This document shows, one piece after another, positions 1,074-41,345 of a stretch of 61,986 nucleotides of DNA. Under the pieces are notes generated by a model. The model saw only the letters and a program-made list of their open reading frames with translations, searched no databases and was not told where the DNA came from. This DNA is from Actinomycetota bacterium (GTDB lineage: Bacteria > Desulfobacterota > Deferrimicrobia > Deferrimicrobiales > Deferrimicrobiaceae): contig JBLMYI010000015.1 in NCBI GenBank assembly GCA_050258195.1, positions 1-61,986 on the forward strand, in the 5' to 3' direction. The translations under genes were made by a program, and so were the position numbers. Position 1 is the first letter of the stretch, and the number at the start of each line of letters is the position of its first letter.

Positions 1074-2060
1074 ATGAAAGCGGTGCGGATGAGCGGGCTG
1101 GGCGGGATCGAGTTCCTCCACATCGGGGAGCACCCCGATCCCGTCATGAAGCAGGACGAGCTCCTCGTCCGGATCCGGGCGACGGCGCTCAACCGCGCGG
1201 ACCTGCTGCAGCGGCGGGGAAAGCATCCTCCGCCCGAGGGCGTCCCGAACATCCTCGGGCTCGAGATGGCCGGAGAGGTATCGGATGTCGGGGCAGCGTG
1301 CGAGGGATGGTCGCCGGGGGACCGGGTGTGCGCCCTGCTGCCGGGGGGCGGGTACTCAGAGCTCGTGTCCATCCCCGCGGGACTGGCGATGCGGATCCCC
1401 GAACGTCTCTCCTTCGAGCAGGCCGCGGCGATCCCCGAGGTGTTCCTGACGGCGTACCAGAACCTGTTCAACGTGGCGCGTCTCGCATTCGGGGAGACGG
1501 TTTTGATCCACGCCGGGGGAAGCGGCGTGGGGACGGCGGCGATCCAGCTGGTGCGCGAAGCGGGGGGGAACTCTTTCGTCACGGCGAGGTCTCCGGAAAA
1601 GATCGCGAGATGCGTGGCGCTGGGCGCGCGTGCCGGGTGGAATCCCAAGGGCGGACCGTTCGCCCCGTGGGTCGCGGAGCAGACCGGCGGTCGCGGGGTC
1701 GACATCGTCCTGGATTTCGTCGGTGCGCCGTATTTCGAGCAGAACCTGCAATCTCTCGCGGTCGACGGGAGGATGGTCGTCATCGGGACCCTTGGCGGGG
1801 CCGAGGTCGGGGCGTTCAGCCTGCGGACGCTCATGTCGAAGCGGCTGCAGCTCACGGGAGCGGGGCTCCGCTCGATGGACTCGGCGCGGAAGATCGCTCT
1901 CACGCGGGCCTTCTCGGAGTTCGCCCTCCCCCGGTTCGCCGATGGGAGGCTCGTGCCGATCGTCGATACCGTCTTCGACTGGCACGATGTCGGGAACGCC
2001 CACCTGCGGATGGAATCGAACGTCAACGTCGGGAAGATCGTCCTTCGGGTGACGGGGTAA
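1074..2060 (+). CDS. NAD(P)H:quinone oxidoreductase, medium-chain (zinc-type) dehydrogenase superfamily
   Basis: ORF 1074..2060. LLVRIRATALNRADLLQRRGKHPPP and HAGGSGVGTAAIQL nucleotide-binding motif resemble Qor/PIG3 enzymes. Confidence 0.8.
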   Translation: MKAVRMSGLGGIEFLHIGEHPDPVMKQDELLVRIRATALNRADLLQRRGKHPPPEGVPNILGLEMAGEVSDVGAACEGWSPGDRVCALLPGGGYSELVSIPAGLAMRIPERLSFEQAAAIPEVFLTAYQNLFNVARLAFGETVLIHAGGSGVGTAAIQLVREAGGNSFVTARSPEKIARCVALGARAGWNPKGGPFAPWVAEQTGGRGVDIVLDFVGAPYFEQNLQSLAVDGRMVVIGTLGGAEVGAFSLRTLMSKRLQLTGAGLRSMDSARKIALTRAFSEFALPRFADGRLVPIVDTVFDWHDVGNAHLRMESNVNVGKIVLRVTG

Positions 2061-2084
2061 GGGCGGACCGCCCCGACGAGGCGG

Positions 2085-3098
2085 CTACCGCTTCTTGAAC
2101 GGTACCCGGGGCTTCGGGGTGGATTTCTTCTTCCCGGGGTGTTTCGCTCCCCGTTTCCAGGCAGGCTTGGGTTGGCGCGGGCCCTTGCGCTCGGCGGATC
2201 CGGCCGCGTCCGCCTCCTTCTCCTTCTCGATCTCCTTTTTACGCGCCGCCTCGTAGATCGACTGCCGGATCACTTTCCGCTTTCCGCGGTCGGCGGGGGT
2301 CTCGAACCGCTTGGGGGGGCGCGGCACGTCGGCCGGGGGTTTCTGCCCGGCGACTTCCACCTCCCGGCGTTCCATGTAGGCGTTCATCTCCCGCACTTCC
2401 TTCGACGTCAGGTAGCGCCACTCCCCCGGCTCGACGCCGGAAAGCTCCAGCGGCCCGATCGCGACGCGCCGCAGCTTGGTCACCCGGTGGCCGATGGCGT
2501 CGAACATCTTGCGAACCTGGTGGTACCGGCCTTCCGCGATCCGCATCAATACCCACGCCTTGCCGCCCTTCTTCTCGATGAAGTTGATCTGGGCGGGTGT
2601 CGTCATCTTCCCCTCGATCGCGACGCCGCGCCGCAGAACGTTCAGCTCCGCCGGGCGGGGAACGGTCTGCAGCTTCGCGATATACGTCTTCTCAACGCCG
2701 AATCGCGGGTGCGTGAGCCGGTAGGCGAACTCGCCGTCGTTCGTGAGCAGGAGCAGCCCGGTGGTGTGGAAGTCGAGACGGCCGACGGGGAAGACGCGGG
2801 AGGAGAGCTCGCCGATCAGCGAGGGGGCGGTCTTGCGGCCCTCGCGATCCTTCATCGTGGTCACCACGTTGTCGGGCTTGTACAGCATGACGTAGATCTT
2901 CTCTTCCTGGACGGGGACGAGCGTGCGGCCGTCGAGGCGCACCTCCTGGGTGGAGGGGTCCCAAAACGTGCCGGGGTCCAGGACCGGGACGCCGCTGACG
3001 GTGACCCGGCCGTTGCGGACCATCTCGTCGGCTACGCGGCGCGAGACGCCGGCGGCCAGCGAGAGGTACCGGTTCAGGTGCTGAGTGTTCCTATTCAT
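2085..3098 (-). CDS. rluB: 23S rRNA pseudouridine synthase RluB family, with basic K/R-rich C-terminal tail
   Basis: C-terminal 337 codons of ORF 2085..3740. S4 domain (LNRYLSLAAGVSRR) and catalytic PVGRLDFHTTGLLLLTNDGE motif. Start is ATG 3098 (MNRNTQHLNRY). The upstream part of the ORF is Arg/Gly/Pro off-frame-like. Confidence 0.85.
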   Translation of the reverse strand: MNRNTQHLNRYLSLAAGVSRRVADEMVRNGRVTVSGVPVLDPGTFWDPSTQEVRLDGRTLVPVQEEKIYVMLYKPDNVVTTMKDREGRKTAPSLIGELSSRVFPVGRLDFHTTGLLLLTNDGEFAYRLTHPRFGVEKTYIAKLQTVPRPAELNVLRRGVAIEGKMTTPAQINFIEKKGGKAWVLMRIAEGRYHQVRKMFDAIGHRVTKLRRVAIGPLELSGVEPGEWRYLTSKEVREMNAYMERREVEVAGQKPPADVPRPPKRFETPADRGKRKVIRQSIYEAARKKEIEKEKEADAAGSAERKGPRQPKPAWKRGAKHPGKKKSTPKPRVPFKKR

Positions 3099-3316
3099 AA
3101 ATAGGGCGAAGCACCGAGAGCGTCGATGCGCCGCGCCGGCAAGGCGCGCGACTGAGACGTACTGAGAAAGTACGGCGCAAGGAGCGCCCCACTCCCGGAC
3201 GAAATCCTCTCCCCGGGGTACCCCAGACGGCCGATACCATGTACCTTGCTCGGCACGAGGGGCACAACGCAGCCGGAGCGGATGCAGCGGCGGTCGGATG
3301 CCGCCATATTTATGAA
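3094..3316. repeat. divergent copy of the repeat core with an internal L-type module, closed by AT-rich inverted arms 3094..3105 / 3304..3316
   Basis: Manual alignment to 41121..41262. Shared blocks are GCACCGAGAG.GTCGATGCGCCGC, the CGTAC..GTACG hairpin and the GCGGATGCAGCGG box (3278..3290). It also contains a GCGCCCC...GGGGTACCCC module (3185..3225). Confidence 0.6.
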
Positions 3317-3325
3317 TTGGGACAC

Positions 3326-4276
3326 TTAGTCCCCATTTCCGGGTTCGCTCCCCTCCCCCGCCGCCTTCGAGGCGGCGTCCGACAGCGCGGCCTCGGTCAC
3401 GTCGGGGGGGAGCTCCCCTTCCTTCGCGGAAGGGCCTTCCGCCGCCGGCCCGGCTTCCGCGAGGCTCGCGGCGAGCTCGTCCCCGCCCTGATCGATTGCG
3501 CCGTCGGGGATCGCCGGCAGGTGCATCGTCGGACGGCCTTCCTCGACCGGCGTGCCGGTGGAGGCGGCGAGGAAATCCTCGATATCCCGCATCGACGGCA
3601 GCTCGGAGAGGGAACCGAGGCTGAACGTCTCCATGAACTCCCGGGTGGTGCCGAAGAGGAACGGCTTGCCGGGGACGTCCTTCTTCCCCATCACCCTCAC
3701 GAGCCGCCGGTCCATCAGCGTCTTCAACGACCCGGCGCAATCCACGCCGCGGATCTGTTCGATCTCCTGCCGGGTCAGCGGCTGCTTGTAGGCGATGATC
3801 GCCAGCGTCTCCAGCGCGGCGCGGGAGAAGCGCGGCGGCTTCACGTCGAAGAGGCGGCGCACGTGCTCCTGGTTCGCCGGGCTGGTGCGGAACTGGAACC
3901 CCTTCGCCACTTCCTCCACGAGGATCCCCGAGGAGTCGACGGGATATTTCGCGCGGAGGAAGGCGAGCACCTCCCGCACCTGGGCGCGGTTGAGGCCGCC
4001 CAGCAGCTGGCGTGCCTTGTCGAGGGGGATCGGCTCGGTGGAAACGAGGAGGAGGCTCTCCAGGATCGAGGCGGCGCGCGGAAGATCGGCGTCGGGAATC
4101 GGAGGCTCCGCCTCCGCTTCGGAGGTCGAGCGCAGCAGTTCGTCGACACTGATCGGCTCCCCGGACGCCAGCGGCGCTTCCGGAGTGTCCCCGGACGCCG
4201 GCGGCGCCTCCGGCGTGTCCCCGGATGCCGGCGGCTCACTCTGCATCGGCGGATTCGGTTTCGGCGTCTCTTCCAT
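3326..4276 (-). CDS. scpB: segregation and condensation protein B, with long low-complexity N- and C-terminal extensions
   Basis: ORF 3326..4276. ILESLLLVSTEPIPLDK...ETLAIIAYKQPLTRQEIEQIRGVD...LMDRRLV is the ScpB double winged-helix pattern. Confidence 0.85.
   Translation of the reverse strand: MEETPKPNPPMQSEPPASGDTPEAPPASGDTPEAPLASGEPISVDELLRSTSEAEAEPPIPDADLPRAASILESLLLVSTEPIPLDKARQLLGGLNRAQVREVLAFLRAKYPVDSSGILVEEVAKGFQFRTSPANQEHVRRLFDVKPPRFSRAALETLAIIAYKQPLTRQEIEQIRGVDCAGSLKTLMDRRLVRVMGKKDVPGKPFLFGTTREFMETFSLGSLSELPSMRDIEDFLAASTGTPVEEGRPTMHLPAIPDGAIDQGGDELAASLAEAGPAAEGPSAKEGELPPDVTEAALSDAASKAAGEGSEPGNGD
4158..4237. repeat. in-frame 30-nt tandem repeat (about 2.7 units) inside the scpB 5' region
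   Basis: TCCCCGGA(C/T)GCC(A/G)GCGGCG..TCCGG.GTG is repeated. It encodes PPASGDTPEA PPASGDTPEA PLASGEP on the minus strand. Confidence 0.8.
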
Positions 4277-40970: not shown

Positions 40971-41345
40971 GAAGGCGCACTTAACGTGAGGGTCCGGCGG
41001 AGTCGACGGAGGAGGCGGGGCGCCCCGGTACGAGCTTCGCGCTGCCGGGGTACCCCCGCAGCAGGAAAAACAGGGGGCACAGTGAGGCCGGCCTCCAGGG
41101 TTCCGTTCCCGAAGAGGCCGTGCACCGAGAGGGTCGATGCGCCGCCTCCGGCGAGGCGCCCGACCGAGGCGTACCCACGGCGGTACGGTGAGGGAGGGGA
41201 ACGATGCCGGGGCGGATGCAGCGGGCCTCGAATGCCGGGATCTGAGGGAATGGAGCCCTGGAGGCCGGTGCGCAGCCGTGCAGGTTCACCGCACGGCGAG
41301 CCACGAACGGAGCCCCGCCCTCCGAGGCGACGAAGCCGAATGGAG
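40971..41345. repeat. long-form mosaic repeat: L-module (40971..41087), TIR-bounded core (41088..41268) and R-module (41269..41345)
   Basis: Manual alignment to 61355..61715 (reverse complement), 42800..43005 and 32275..32530. See findings. Confidence 0.85.
41088..41268. repeat. 181-nt repeat core bounded by perfect 13-bp inverted termini CCGGCCTCCAGGG / CCCTGGAGGCCGG (MITE-like element or structured RNA)
   Basis: Read directly. A twin at 61432..61612 in opposite orientation differs by 7 substitutions and no indels in my hand alignment. Confidence 0.8.

What the first reader, a model, noticed from the sequence alone, without database searches (positions are those of the whole stretch)
3094..3316. 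Divergent core relative forms the rluB leader; AT-rich arms 200 nt apart can bury the rluB start codon
The 227-nt scpB-rluB spacer aligns in two blocks with the core: 3111..3183 with 41121..41195, and 3268..3316 with the core 3' end. An L-type module (GCGCCCC...GGGGTACCCC, 3185..3225) is nested in the middle, which is the reverse nesting order of the 41-kb copy.

One hairpin shows a compensatory change. It is CGTACC/GGTACG in the core and CGTACT/AGTACG at 3158..3174, with unrelated loops.

The element is closed by TTCATAAATA(3094..3103)/TATTTATGAA(3307..3316), 10 perfect bp, plus GG/CC after a 1-nt bulge. On the minus-strand mRNA this helix contains the rluB ATG (3098..3096). No Shine-Dalgarno is visible upstream of that ATG. 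The start codon therefore lies inside the repeat terminus and could be structurally occluded.
Basis: partly seen in the sequence, partly recalled or inferred. Interest (0 to 1): 0.6.

Follow-up and report, generated by a model that had tools for sequence, protein, structure and literature searches.

The report
Mobile repeat supplies rluB's start codon
A small mobile DNA repeat (a MITE) landed exactly where the scpB stop and rluB start codons used to overlap, and rluB now begins at an ATG inside the repeat's end, which is a well-documented example of a known kind of event rather than a new regulator.

Summary
The 227-nt scpB-rluB spacer is one copy of a multi-copy repeat carrying a nested 78-nt module, and its AT-rich arms are the middle of a 28-nt inverted repeat (24 of 28 paired).

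These arms are the terminal inverted repeats of a MITE. Relatives with an empty site show the old arrangement, in which scpB and rluB overlap by 11 nt (ATGGCGACTGA). The element inserted at that stop codon and cut off rluB's first codons. rluB now starts at an outward-facing ATG in the repeat end (MNRNTQ... in place of MATE...).

- In three alleles no other in-frame start exists.
- rluB is still under purifying selection.
- A 26-nt relic in two relatives keeps this ATG.

Every filled allele also keeps an open frame running from the scpB stop to a TGA or TAG overlapping the new ATG.

A regulatory "buried start" is not supported: the opening energy is ordinary for this GC-rich genome, there is no informative covariation, and one relative has a decayed distal arm. 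My best guess (about 40%) is that the helix and bridging frame keep rluB translationally coupled to scpB.

This scan has noted the same family at gene junctions in other genomes.

The parts
2085..3098 (-). rluB-type pseudouridine synthase gene. Its first 14 nt (3098..3085, ATGAATAGGAACAC) are MITE sequence.
   Evidence: Pfam PseudoU_synth_2 3.1e-22 plus S4. Translation. Divergence between filled genomes is 3-7% at codon positions 1+2 against 13-25% at position 3, which indicates purifying selection.
3096..3098 (-). Present rluB start codon, inside the terminal inverted repeat.
   Evidence: It is the only in-frame ATG/GTG/TTG between the scpB end and the S4 domain in the own genome, L004 and L005. 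L005 differs only by two synonymous changes, AAT>AAC and AGG>CGG.
3085..3325 (.). MITE copy (GTG...CAC, 241 nt including the nested module).
   Evidence: About 17-23 copies in the 2.3-Mb draft genome, with conserved ends. Empty orthologous sites exist in relatives.
3081..3108 (.). Left terminal inverted repeat plus flank. In the mRNA this is the 3' arm of the closing helix and holds the ATG.
   Evidence: Inverted repeat I1, 28 nt, 86% complementary.
3302..3329 (.). Right terminal inverted repeat plus flank. In the mRNA this is the 5' arm of the closing helix and begins at the scpB stop.
   Evidence: predicted folds.
3326..3328 (-). scpB stop codon TAA, which is also the T(N)A flank of the element. 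It reads TGA, TAG or TAA in different filled alleles, always a stop.
3082..3084 (-). The other T(N)A flank (TCA on the mRNA strand), now part of rluB codons 5-6.
3334..3336 (-). Former rluB start codon, still present inside the scpB end. In this genome it opens only an 8-codon frame that ends at TAA 3312..3310.
   Evidence: Empty sites read ATGGCGACTGAGCGCCTGAAC, giving M A T E R L N. Frame analysis.
3095..3325 (-). Bridging open frame of 76 codons. Its GTG abuts the scpB TAA and its TGA overlaps the new rluB ATG (ATGA).
   Evidence: Listed. An equivalent frame is kept in all 8 structural alleles of the filled site.
3188..3265 (.). Nested 78-nt L-type module inside the MITE.
   Evidence: Absent from orthologues L004, L005 and L121 and from most paralogues. 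Present at the same position in C20 and C39.
3158..3174 (.). Small conserved hairpin CGTACT-GAGAA-AGTACG of the element core.
   Evidence: (I5).
3326..4276 (-). scpB.
   Evidence: Pfam SMC_ScpB 7.6e-50.

Best explanation
**What happened (shown).**
- In the ancestor, scpB and rluB overlapped by 11 nt: ...AAT GGC GAC TGA for scpB, and ATG GCG ACT GAG for rluB.
- A MITE of about 160 nt from a family abundant in Deferrimicrobium genomes inserted at the T(N)A of the scpB stop codon.
- The flank copy on one side still provides a stop for scpB.
- The insertion separated rluB from its first three codons.
- rluB was rescued by an outward-facing ATG that every copy of this family carries 14 nt from its end. 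Here that ATG is in frame, giving M-N-R-N-T-Q fused to the old ...L-N-R-Y-L.
- The 28-bp 'long-range helix' is simply the two terminal inverted repeats pairing in the transcript.

**How it probably works now (inferred, about 40%).**
- The new ATG has no Shine-Dalgarno sequence and is paired with the segment that begins at the scpB stop codon.
- rluB translation therefore most likely still depends on upstream translation.
- Ribosomes ending scpB would unwind the helix. So would ribosomes reading the frame that runs from the old ATG, or from the GTG next to the scpB stop, right through the element.
- These ribosomes terminate at the TGA or TAG that overlaps the new ATG, and initiation follows there.
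- In this reading the ancestral translational coupling is kept, but stretched over 227 nt.
For: **Empty, filled and relic sites**
- Eleven relatives have the uninterrupted overlap GGCGACTGAGCGCC. These include all outgroup species with 76-80% RluB identity.
- The own genome, L003, L004, L005 and L009 carry the element at this exact point. L010 keeps a 26-nt relic and L008 a 15-nt relic.
- Ten metagenome contigs add further filled alleles.

**The element is a MITE**
- It has 28-nt terminal inverted repeats.
- At least 17 full-length copies have the same ends.
- Four other copies have identical T-N-A flanks on both sides.
- In 10 of 16 ends that abut a converging gene, the T-N-A is that gene's in-frame stop.
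- A same-genus element with a DDE_3 transposase gene has similar ends.

**The repeat's ATG is the start**
- No other in-frame ATG/GTG/TTG lies between the scpB stop and the S4 domain in the own genome, L004 or L005.
- The S4 match begins at about residue 5.
- L005's two changes in these codons are both synonymous.
- rluB remains under purifying selection in filled genomes.
- The L010/L119 relic retains this ATG, while the old ATG there opens only an 8-codon frame ending at the overlapping TGA.

**Coupling**
- The closing helix is predicted in all five orthologues.
- Holding unpaired the segment that a ribosome covers at the scpB stop lowers the opening cost of the start region from 22.2 to 12.9 kcal/mol.
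- A bridging frame is present in 8 of 8 structural alleles despite different indels.
- The mRNA-strand interior has 0 stop triplets against 3.1 expected, p about 0.01.
- The leader diverges 1-4% in most pairs (up to 14% where L009's replaced hairpin enters the comparison), against 13-25% at rluB third codon positions.
- RNA-unfolding coupling over tens of nucleotides has precedent in rpmI-rplT (PMC12548453).
Against: - There is no expression, transcript-end or ribosome data.
- The opening cost of the start region (22 kcal/mol) is not exceptional against a rough set of 45 gene starts in the window.
- The helix shows no informative covariation, and L003 has three changes in the distal arm.
- The two flanks of this copy are not identical (TAA against TCA) and neither equals the TGA of empty sites. 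The size of the target duplication (2 or 3 nt) is therefore unresolved.
- The stop-free interior is not significant for the family consensus (0 against about 1.2 expected).
- Family copies between co-directional genes lie in both orientations, 6 to 5. The bridging frame may therefore be a by-product of GC-rich sequence.
- The low divergence of the leader is also seen in orthologous copies at another locus. It may reflect a constraint on the element core unrelated to rluB.
Confidence: 0.65

Rival explanations
1. Passive passenger. The element did replace the start codon, but the helix and the bridging frame have no role. Ribosomes bind the AU-rich, Shine-Dalgarno-less ATG directly whenever the imperfect helix breathes. 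The conservation of the leader belongs to the element's own core, whatever that does.
For: - The opening cost is ordinary for this genome.
- There is no covariation, and the distal arm has decayed in L003.
- Family copies show no orientation preference.
- The stop-free interior is not significant for the family consensus.
- Orthologous copies at the lipoprotein locus show similar core conservation.
Against: - The ATG has no ribosome-binding motif and lies in 24 of 28 paired positions.
- The ancestral pair was an overlapping, presumably coupled pair.
- All eight structural alleles keep a frame that ends on the ATG.
- The 5' arm has 0-3 differences in 28 nt between species that differ by 17-24% at codon position 3.
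Confidence: 0.3
2. The long-range helix is a dedicated regulatory switch that occludes the rluB start until a signal such as temperature, a protein or a small RNA opens it.
For: - The start codon is inside a predicted stable helix.
- The fold has z = -4.5.
- The leader is strongly conserved.
Against: - The helix is the generic terminal repeat pairing of every family copy.
- No Rfam family matches even at E = 5.
- There is no covariation.
- Closely related species manage without the element, or with only a 15-26-nt relic. rluB therefore does not need such control.
Confidence: 0.08
3. The hairpin acts at the level of RNA processing. The long imperfect duplex is cut by RNase III, or stabilises the 3' end of the scpB message, as reported for Correia elements in Neisseria. 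This would uncouple scpB and rluB transcript levels.
For: - A 28-bp duplex sits directly after the scpB stop.
- That Correia elements are RNase III substrates is from my own knowledge and was not checked in a paper here.
- A terminator-like hairpin followed by a T-run exists only on the opposite strand.
Against: - No transcript data are available.
- Cleavage in the helix would remove or truncate the region holding the rluB ATG, yet rluB remains under purifying selection.
Confidence: 0.1
4. rluB starts somewhere else. Either it is an N-terminally extended protein read through the element (in this genome the rluB frame is open upstream to 3740), or it starts at a downstream codon.
For: In the own genome the rluB frame has no stop across the whole element.
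Against: - That frame has no ATG/GTG/TTG from at least position 3500 (172 nt inside scpB) down to the repeat's ATG in the own genome. In L004 and L005 the scpB TAA itself is an in-frame stop.
- The next downstream ATG, at about codon 27, would remove the first part of the S4 domain.
Confidence: 0.05

Closest known systems
MITEAba12 of Acinetobacter (derived from ISAba12)
   Same: Nucleotides reading outward from its terminal inverted repeat supply the start codon and first four residues (MQQS) of neighbouring genes in several strains (PMC6382973).
   Different: - It belongs to a different transposon family and host, and has a 9-bp target duplication.
- No case is described of splitting an overlapping gene pair.
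- No empty, filled and relic series is described, and no bridging frame.
MIRU (mycobacterial interspersed repetitive units) in operon spacers
   Same: Repeats sit between genes of a polycistron and contain small open frames whose ends overlap the stop and start of the flanking genes (Supply et al. 1997, as summarised in PMC3184786). This is the same geometry as the 76-codon frame here.
   Different: - MIRUs are 40-100 bp tandem-type units with weak terminal repeats.
- Here a single hairpin MITE supplies the start codon itself, and the frame is probably not conserved as a peptide.
IS630-type bacterial MITEs (RUP of Streptococcus pneumoniae, Correia/NEMIS of Neisseria)
   Same: - Short, multi-copy and non-coding.
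- Long terminal inverted repeats that fold into hairpin RNAs.
- Insertion at T-A-containing palindromic targets next to genes.
- A same-genus element with a DDE_3 (IS630-type) transposase gene has similar ends.
   Different: - The empty rluB site has no TA dinucleotide (GACTGAGCG).
- The best-preserved copies have 3-nt T-N-A repeats rather than TA. A strict IS630 target rule is therefore not met here.
Neisseria REP2 repeats
   Same: A repeat that brings an ATG start codon, and 5' untranslated sequence, to the gene downstream (PMC3184786).
   Different: REP2 has no terminal inverted repeats and carries its own promoter and ribosome-binding site. Neither was found in this element.
Translational coupling by RNA unfolding (rpmI-rplT, phage MS2 coat-lysis, f1 genes VII-IX)
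   Same: The downstream start is held in a structure whose other strand lies in or next to the upstream reading frame. Upstream translation opens it (PMC12548453).
   Different: Here the structure was imported ready-made by a transposon, spans about 200 nt, and the coupling is untested.

Membership tests
Bacterial MITE | Short element with no room for a transposase gene | tested here: met
   241 nt including a 78-nt nested module. Canonical copies are 161-165 nt.
Bacterial MITE | Terminal inverted repeats | tested here: met
   28 nt, 86% complementary. The same ends occur on the other copies.
Bacterial MITE | Many dispersed copies in the genome | tested here: met
   18 aligned copies and 23 loci by BLAST in a 2.3-Mb draft genome.
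Bacterial MITE | Empty orthologous site and target-site duplication | tested here: inconclusive
   The empty site is clearly shown in 11 relatives. The flanks of this copy differ (TAA against TCA; the empty site reads TGA). Four other copies have identical T-N-A on both sides.
IS630-derived MITE | Ends match those of an autonomous IS630-family element | tested here: inconclusive
   Same-genus locus L090 has a DDE_3 open frame flanked by GTACTCCATTCCACAATTACGG at both ends. This matches about 17 of 22 positions of the MITE consensus end. No transposase gene was found in the own genome.
IS630-derived MITE | TA duplication at a (C)TA(G) target | tested here: not met
   The empty rluB site GGCGACTGAGCGCC has no TA. 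The central base of the flanks varies (T 8, A 5, C 4, G 2), as expected for T-N-A. L090 itself fits TA in CTAG.
Repeat-borne start codon (MITEAba12 / REP2 type) | The gene's first codons are repeat sequence and are in frame | tested here: met
   ATG AAT AGG AAC AC is repeat sequence and is followed in frame by the old rluB codons.
Repeat-borne start codon (MITEAba12 / REP2 type) | That codon is actually used for initiation | not testable with these tools
   Only indirect support is available: no alternative in-frame start, synonymous-only changes, and purifying selection on rluB.
Translationally coupled pair, RNA-unfolding type | Structure covering the downstream start region | tested here: met
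   Predicted in all five orthologues. The opening cost is 22 kcal/mol, though not unusual for this genome.
Translationally coupled pair, RNA-unfolding type | The partner strand of the structure is crossed or covered by upstream ribosomes | tested here: met
   The 5' arm starts at the scpB stop codon. The bridging frame 3325..3095 crosses both arms. A parked ribosome lowers the opening cost to 12.9 kcal/mol.
Translationally coupled pair, RNA-unfolding type | Downstream translation depends on upstream translation | not testable with these tools
   This needs reporter fusions or ribosome profiling.
   The 27 helix pairs are nearly invariant in five orthologues. L003 has three changes in its 5' arm, two giving non-pairs and one a G-U wobble. 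L005 has one double change at a mismatch position and one broken pair.
   No Rfam match up to E = 5 on either strand of 3000..3420.

The most novel reading that the evidence does not exclude
This MITE family is built so that it can land in operon junctions without killing either neighbour:
- The T(N)A target is often a stop codon, and the duplication regenerates it.
- Each end carries an outward ATG whose ATGA also provides an overlapping stop.
- The GC-rich interior lacks stop codons on one strand, so ribosomes can relay across it.

The element would then act as a ready-made 'coupling cassette' that can even split overlapping genes. This appears at rluB and again at a lipoprotein gene elsewhere in the genome.
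Probability: 0.15. Interest if true: 0.7.

Novelty: new member of a known kind. Interest (0 to 1): 0.45.

Why it matters
- **A complete natural series.** Related genomes show the ancestral overlap, the filled site in several structural variants, and two kinds of relic. Together they show how a transposon insertion into an overlapping stop/start junction of two housekeeping genes can be survived. The element's own end donates a start codon, and the duplicated target keeps the stop.
- **Annotation.** In these genomes rluB, and probably other genes, start inside a repeat. Gene callers that expect a ribosome-binding site may place the start wrongly.
- **A testable model.** If the coupling idea holds, this is a simple natural case of translational coupling stretched over about 200 nt by an imported hairpin.
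- **A wider question.** The repeat-derived leader evolves 5-10 times more slowly than neighbouring synonymous sites. This adds to the question, already raised in this scan, of what the conserved core of this family does.

Tried and rejected
- **Known RNA families.** Rfam gave only two tRNAs elsewhere in the window at gathering threshold. It gave nothing in 3000..3420 at E up to 5.
- **Promoter inside the element.** None was found in 2900..3500. Terminator-like hairpins are two overlapping calls of one site on the opposite strand and one weak site on the mRNA strand.
- **Exceptional occlusion of the start.** Rejected. The 22 kcal/mol opening cost falls within the window's rough distribution. 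That baseline uses crude start calls, which inflates it.
- **Covariation in the closing helix.** Uninformative with five orthologues.
- **Orientation bias between co-directional genes.** A first impression of 5-6 to 0 came from a subset. A fuller table gives 6 to 5, so I dropped it.
- **Outward ATG systematically in frame with downstream genes.** 7 of 13 against one third expected, not significant.
- **Element length conserved modulo 3, as a designed relay would need.** Not so. Lengths of 161-165 nt fall in all three classes.
- **IS5/IS1031-type parent, suggested by T-N-A flanks.** No DDE_Tnp_1 or DDE_3 gene was found in the own genome. The only element found with similar ends carries a DDE_3 gene.
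- **Single gain without loss.** Rejected by an AU test on the rluB tree, p = 1e-4.
- **First literature search.** The search on MITEs and overlapping genes returned nothing specific. The second was useful.
Full report
**The region.** The window is contig C15 of a 2.3-Mb, 181-contig draft genome with 66.5% G+C. Its closest named relatives are Candidatus Deferrimicrobium / Deferrimicrobiaceae metagenome-assembled genomes. On the minus strand, scpB is 3326..4276 (SMC_ScpB, 7.6e-50). It is followed by an rluB-type pseudouridine synthase gene at 2085..3098 (PseudoU_synth_2 plus S4). The 227-nt spacer between them is the finding.

**Checking the observation.** All the sequence statements hold.
- The spacer matches the 41-kb 'core' in two blocks, at 86.8% and 78.7%.
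- It contains a nested module and has the CGTACT/AGTACG hairpin.
- The ten perfect AT-rich pairs are the centre of a longer inverted repeat, 3081-3108 / 3302-3329, with 24 of 28 paired.
- This repeat runs from the scpB stop codon on one side to codon 6 of rluB on the other.
- The minus-strand leader folds with this closing helix at -127.6 kcal/mol, z = -4.5.
- No Shine-Dalgarno-like motif precedes ATG 3098.

**What the spacer is.**
- BLAST against the genome finds many copies of the same unit.
- An alignment of 18 copies shows sharp, shared ends: GTG(G/T)NCC..TTCATAAATACGGCG on the left and its complement on the right. These are flanked by T-N-A, and the internal core is highly conserved.
- Canonical copies are 161-165 nt.
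- The rluB copy and two others (C20, C39) carry an extra 78-nt module at the same internal point, here 3188..3265.
- This is a MITE, and the 'arms' are its terminal inverted repeats.
- Four other copies have identical T-N-A on both sides.
- Across all ends the middle base varies (T 8, A 5, C 4, G 2), which fits a 3-nt T-N-A duplication better than TA.
- The own genome has no DDE_3 or DDE_Tnp_1 transposase gene.
- A same-genus genome has a DDE_3 gene flanked by similar ends (L090). The IS630-type parent named by earlier notes of this scan is therefore plausible, but the TA rule is not met at this site.

**The comparative result.** I fetched the rluB locus from 17 related genomes and read the junction in each.
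- Eleven of them, including all the more distant ones, have no spacer at all. The sequence reads ...GGA AAT GGC GAC TGA GCG CCT GAA CCG...
- In these genomes scpB ends at GAC TGA and rluB starts at ATG GCG ACT GAG. This is an 11-nt overlap preceded by a GGGGAGGGGAG tract.
- The own genome and L003, L004, L005 and L009 have the element inserted exactly at that TGA.
- The left flank is now TAA, TAG or TGA (always a stop for scpB) and the right flank is TCA.
- The old rluB ATG is still there (3336..3334) but is cut off from the gene.
- rluB now reads ATG AAT AGG AAC AC|T CAG CAC CTG AAC..., where the first 14 nt are the element's end.

**Is the repeat's ATG really the start?**
- In L004 and L005 the scpB TAA is itself in the rluB frame, and no ATG, GTG or TTG lies between it and the repeat's ATG.
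- In the own genome there is none from 3500 down to 3098.
- The S4 domain match begins around residue 5, and the next downstream ATG would truncate it.
- L005 differs from the others in these codons by AAT>AAC and AGG>CGG, both synonymous.
- rluB evolves under purifying selection between filled genomes: 3-7% at codon positions 1+2 against 13-25% at position 3.
- L010 and metagenome contig L119 have lost all but 26 nt of the element yet keep this ATG. In them the old ATG opens only MATKCPYL-stop.
- L008 kept 15 nt in frame and so uses the old ATG again.

I regard the start-codon replacement as well supported (about 0.9), although it remains indirect.

**History.**
- On an rluB nucleotide tree, all filled and relic loci fall inside one well-supported clade (99/99), with filled L005 basal. 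Filled and empty loci are interleaved within it.
- An AU test rejects filled plus relic loci as one clade, p = 1e-4.
- The filled alleles share site-specific derived characters (TCAG flank, AATAGG, CCCTATTT), so there was one insertion.
- The empty sites inside the clade still read TGA, as in the outgroup. Both alleles have therefore probably persisted and been exchanged by recombination, with occasional internal deletions producing the relics.

**Does the helix regulate?**
- The helix is predicted in all five orthologous leaders.
- The energy to open -20..+13 around the ATG is 22.2 kcal/mol. It falls to 12.9 when the 27 nt that a ribosome would cover at the scpB stop are held unpaired.
- The same measure for 45 roughly called gene starts in the window has median 16.3, 90th percentile 24 and maximum 29. 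The start is therefore not unusually buried for this GC-rich genome. The crude start calls inflate that baseline.
- The 27 helix pairs are almost invariant among the orthologues and give no covariation signal.
- L003 has three changes in the distal arm and none in the ATG-side arm.
- No Rfam family matches, and no promoter-like site lies in the element.

A dedicated occlusion switch is therefore not supported.

- A 76-codon frame, 3325..3095 (listed), starts with the GTG that directly follows the scpB TAA. It ends at a TGA overlapping the new rluB ATG (ATGA).
- In alleles with one extra A after the stop (L004, L005, L113 and others), the same stretch is read from the old rluB ATG.
- In L003, L114 and L122 a 1-nt indel shifts the frame so that it ends at the TAG of ATGAATAG.
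- All eight structural alleles (spacers of 12, 149, 150, 227 and 266 nt, with or without the extra A) keep a frame running from the scpB stop or old ATG to within 8 nt of the new ATG.
- This works because the interior has no stop triplet in any frame on the mRNA strand: 0 against 3.1 expected, p about 0.01 for this copy.
- For the family consensus the depletion is not significant. Copy lengths fall in all three classes modulo 3, and copies between co-directional genes lie in both orientations, 6 to 5.
- I therefore do not claim a family-wide design.

The geometry is the one described for mycobacterial MIRUs (PMC3184786). It also fits the RNA-unfolding and reinitiation models of translational coupling (PMC12548453).

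**Conservation.**
- The 72 nt upstream of the ATG differ by 1-3 positions among the own genome, L003, L004 and L005. Comparisons with L009 give 9-10, because its replaced hairpin falls within these columns.
- The 5' half differs by 2-11 of 61.
- The same genomes differ by 13-25% at rluB third codon positions.
- Sequence just outside the element diverges at a higher rate (about 2 differences in the first 27 nt).
- Orthologues are closer to each other (about 97%) than paralogues within one genome (84-91%). Gene conversion among copies is therefore not the cause.
- The same holds for orthologous copies at a second locus. The constraint may therefore belong to the element's core rather than to rluB. 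Earlier notes of this scan remarked on the same thing.

**A second locus (outside the window).**
- On contig C137 a predicted lipoprotein gene now begins MKRNTRARRLLSLLLLVALLPTVPGC, with MKRNT coming from the same kind of repeat end.
- Genus relatives with an empty site start this gene at a GTG that overlaps the last eight codons of the upstream gene. The element sits at that gene's TAA.
- Details differ between alleles. In L096 the old GTG frame reads through the whole element in frame.
- In the own genome the upstream gene has been replaced by a divergent one.
- Across the genome, 10 of 16 ends next to a converging gene have the T-N-A in frame as that gene's stop codon.

That note reported that the family inserts at stop codons, gene overlaps and signal-peptide regions.

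**Comparison with known systems and verdict.**
- Repeat ends donating start codons are known from MITEAba12 (MQQS; PMC6382973) and Neisseria REP2.
- Repeats with small frames bridging operon genes are known from MIRUs.
- Hairpin MITEs of IS630 type are common.
- This is a new member of that kind in an uncultured lineage. It is unusually well documented by its empty, filled and relic series, and it has an untested but concrete coupling hypothesis.

Noticed in passing
G000 contig C137, 493..656 and gene ..506(-) (locus L093); relatives L094-L110: This is a second case of the same event. A predicted lipoprotein gene now starts at the outward ATG of a family copy (MKRNT + RRLLSLLLL...GC). Relatives with an empty site start it at a GTG overlapping the upstream gene's end, and the element sits at that gene's TAA. 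In the own genome the upstream gene has also been replaced by a divergent gene, so the element is the gene's whole 5' region.
   Followed up: partly
window 3099..3325 compared with L003, L004, L005, L009: The repeat-derived leader diverges 1-4% in the 72 nt before the ATG among the own genome, L003, L004 and L005. The same genomes differ by 13-25% at rluB third codon positions. Orthologues are more alike than paralogues, so this is constraint and not homogenisation among copies.
   Followed up: partly
whole genome G000, 32 family ends: In 10 of 16 ends that abut a converging gene, the T-N-A flank is that gene's in-frame stop codon. The family is therefore found preferentially exactly at stop codons.
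   Followed up: partly
L009 2715..3035 and L122 (metagenome contig): In these two alleles the small CGTACT/AGTACG hairpin of the element is replaced by a longer, unrelated hairpin (GGGGGGACACTCC...GGAGTGTCCCCC). The net change is +39 nt, a third layer of nesting that keeps the bridging frame open.
   Followed up: no
L008 2988..3035 and L010 2977..3035: Relics of the element keep only 8+7 nt (L008) or 7+19 nt (L010) of the two ends. They look like deletions at the base of the hairpin (3-nt CCC microhomology in L010) rather than transposase footprints.
   Followed up: no
L090 (G035:C31) 1224..3244: A 2-kb element in a same-genus genome has a 408-codon open frame with a DDE_3 domain. It has 22-nt ends similar to the MITE ends and is flanked as GGC-TA-A...T-TA-GCC. 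It is a candidate autonomous relative.
   Followed up: partly
L017 junction (CAWHIM010000037.1): This empty allele reads GGCGAACTGAGCGCC, with one extra A. That would put a stop (ATG GCG AAC TGA) in the old rluB start frame. It is possibly a long-read homopolymer error.
   Followed up: no
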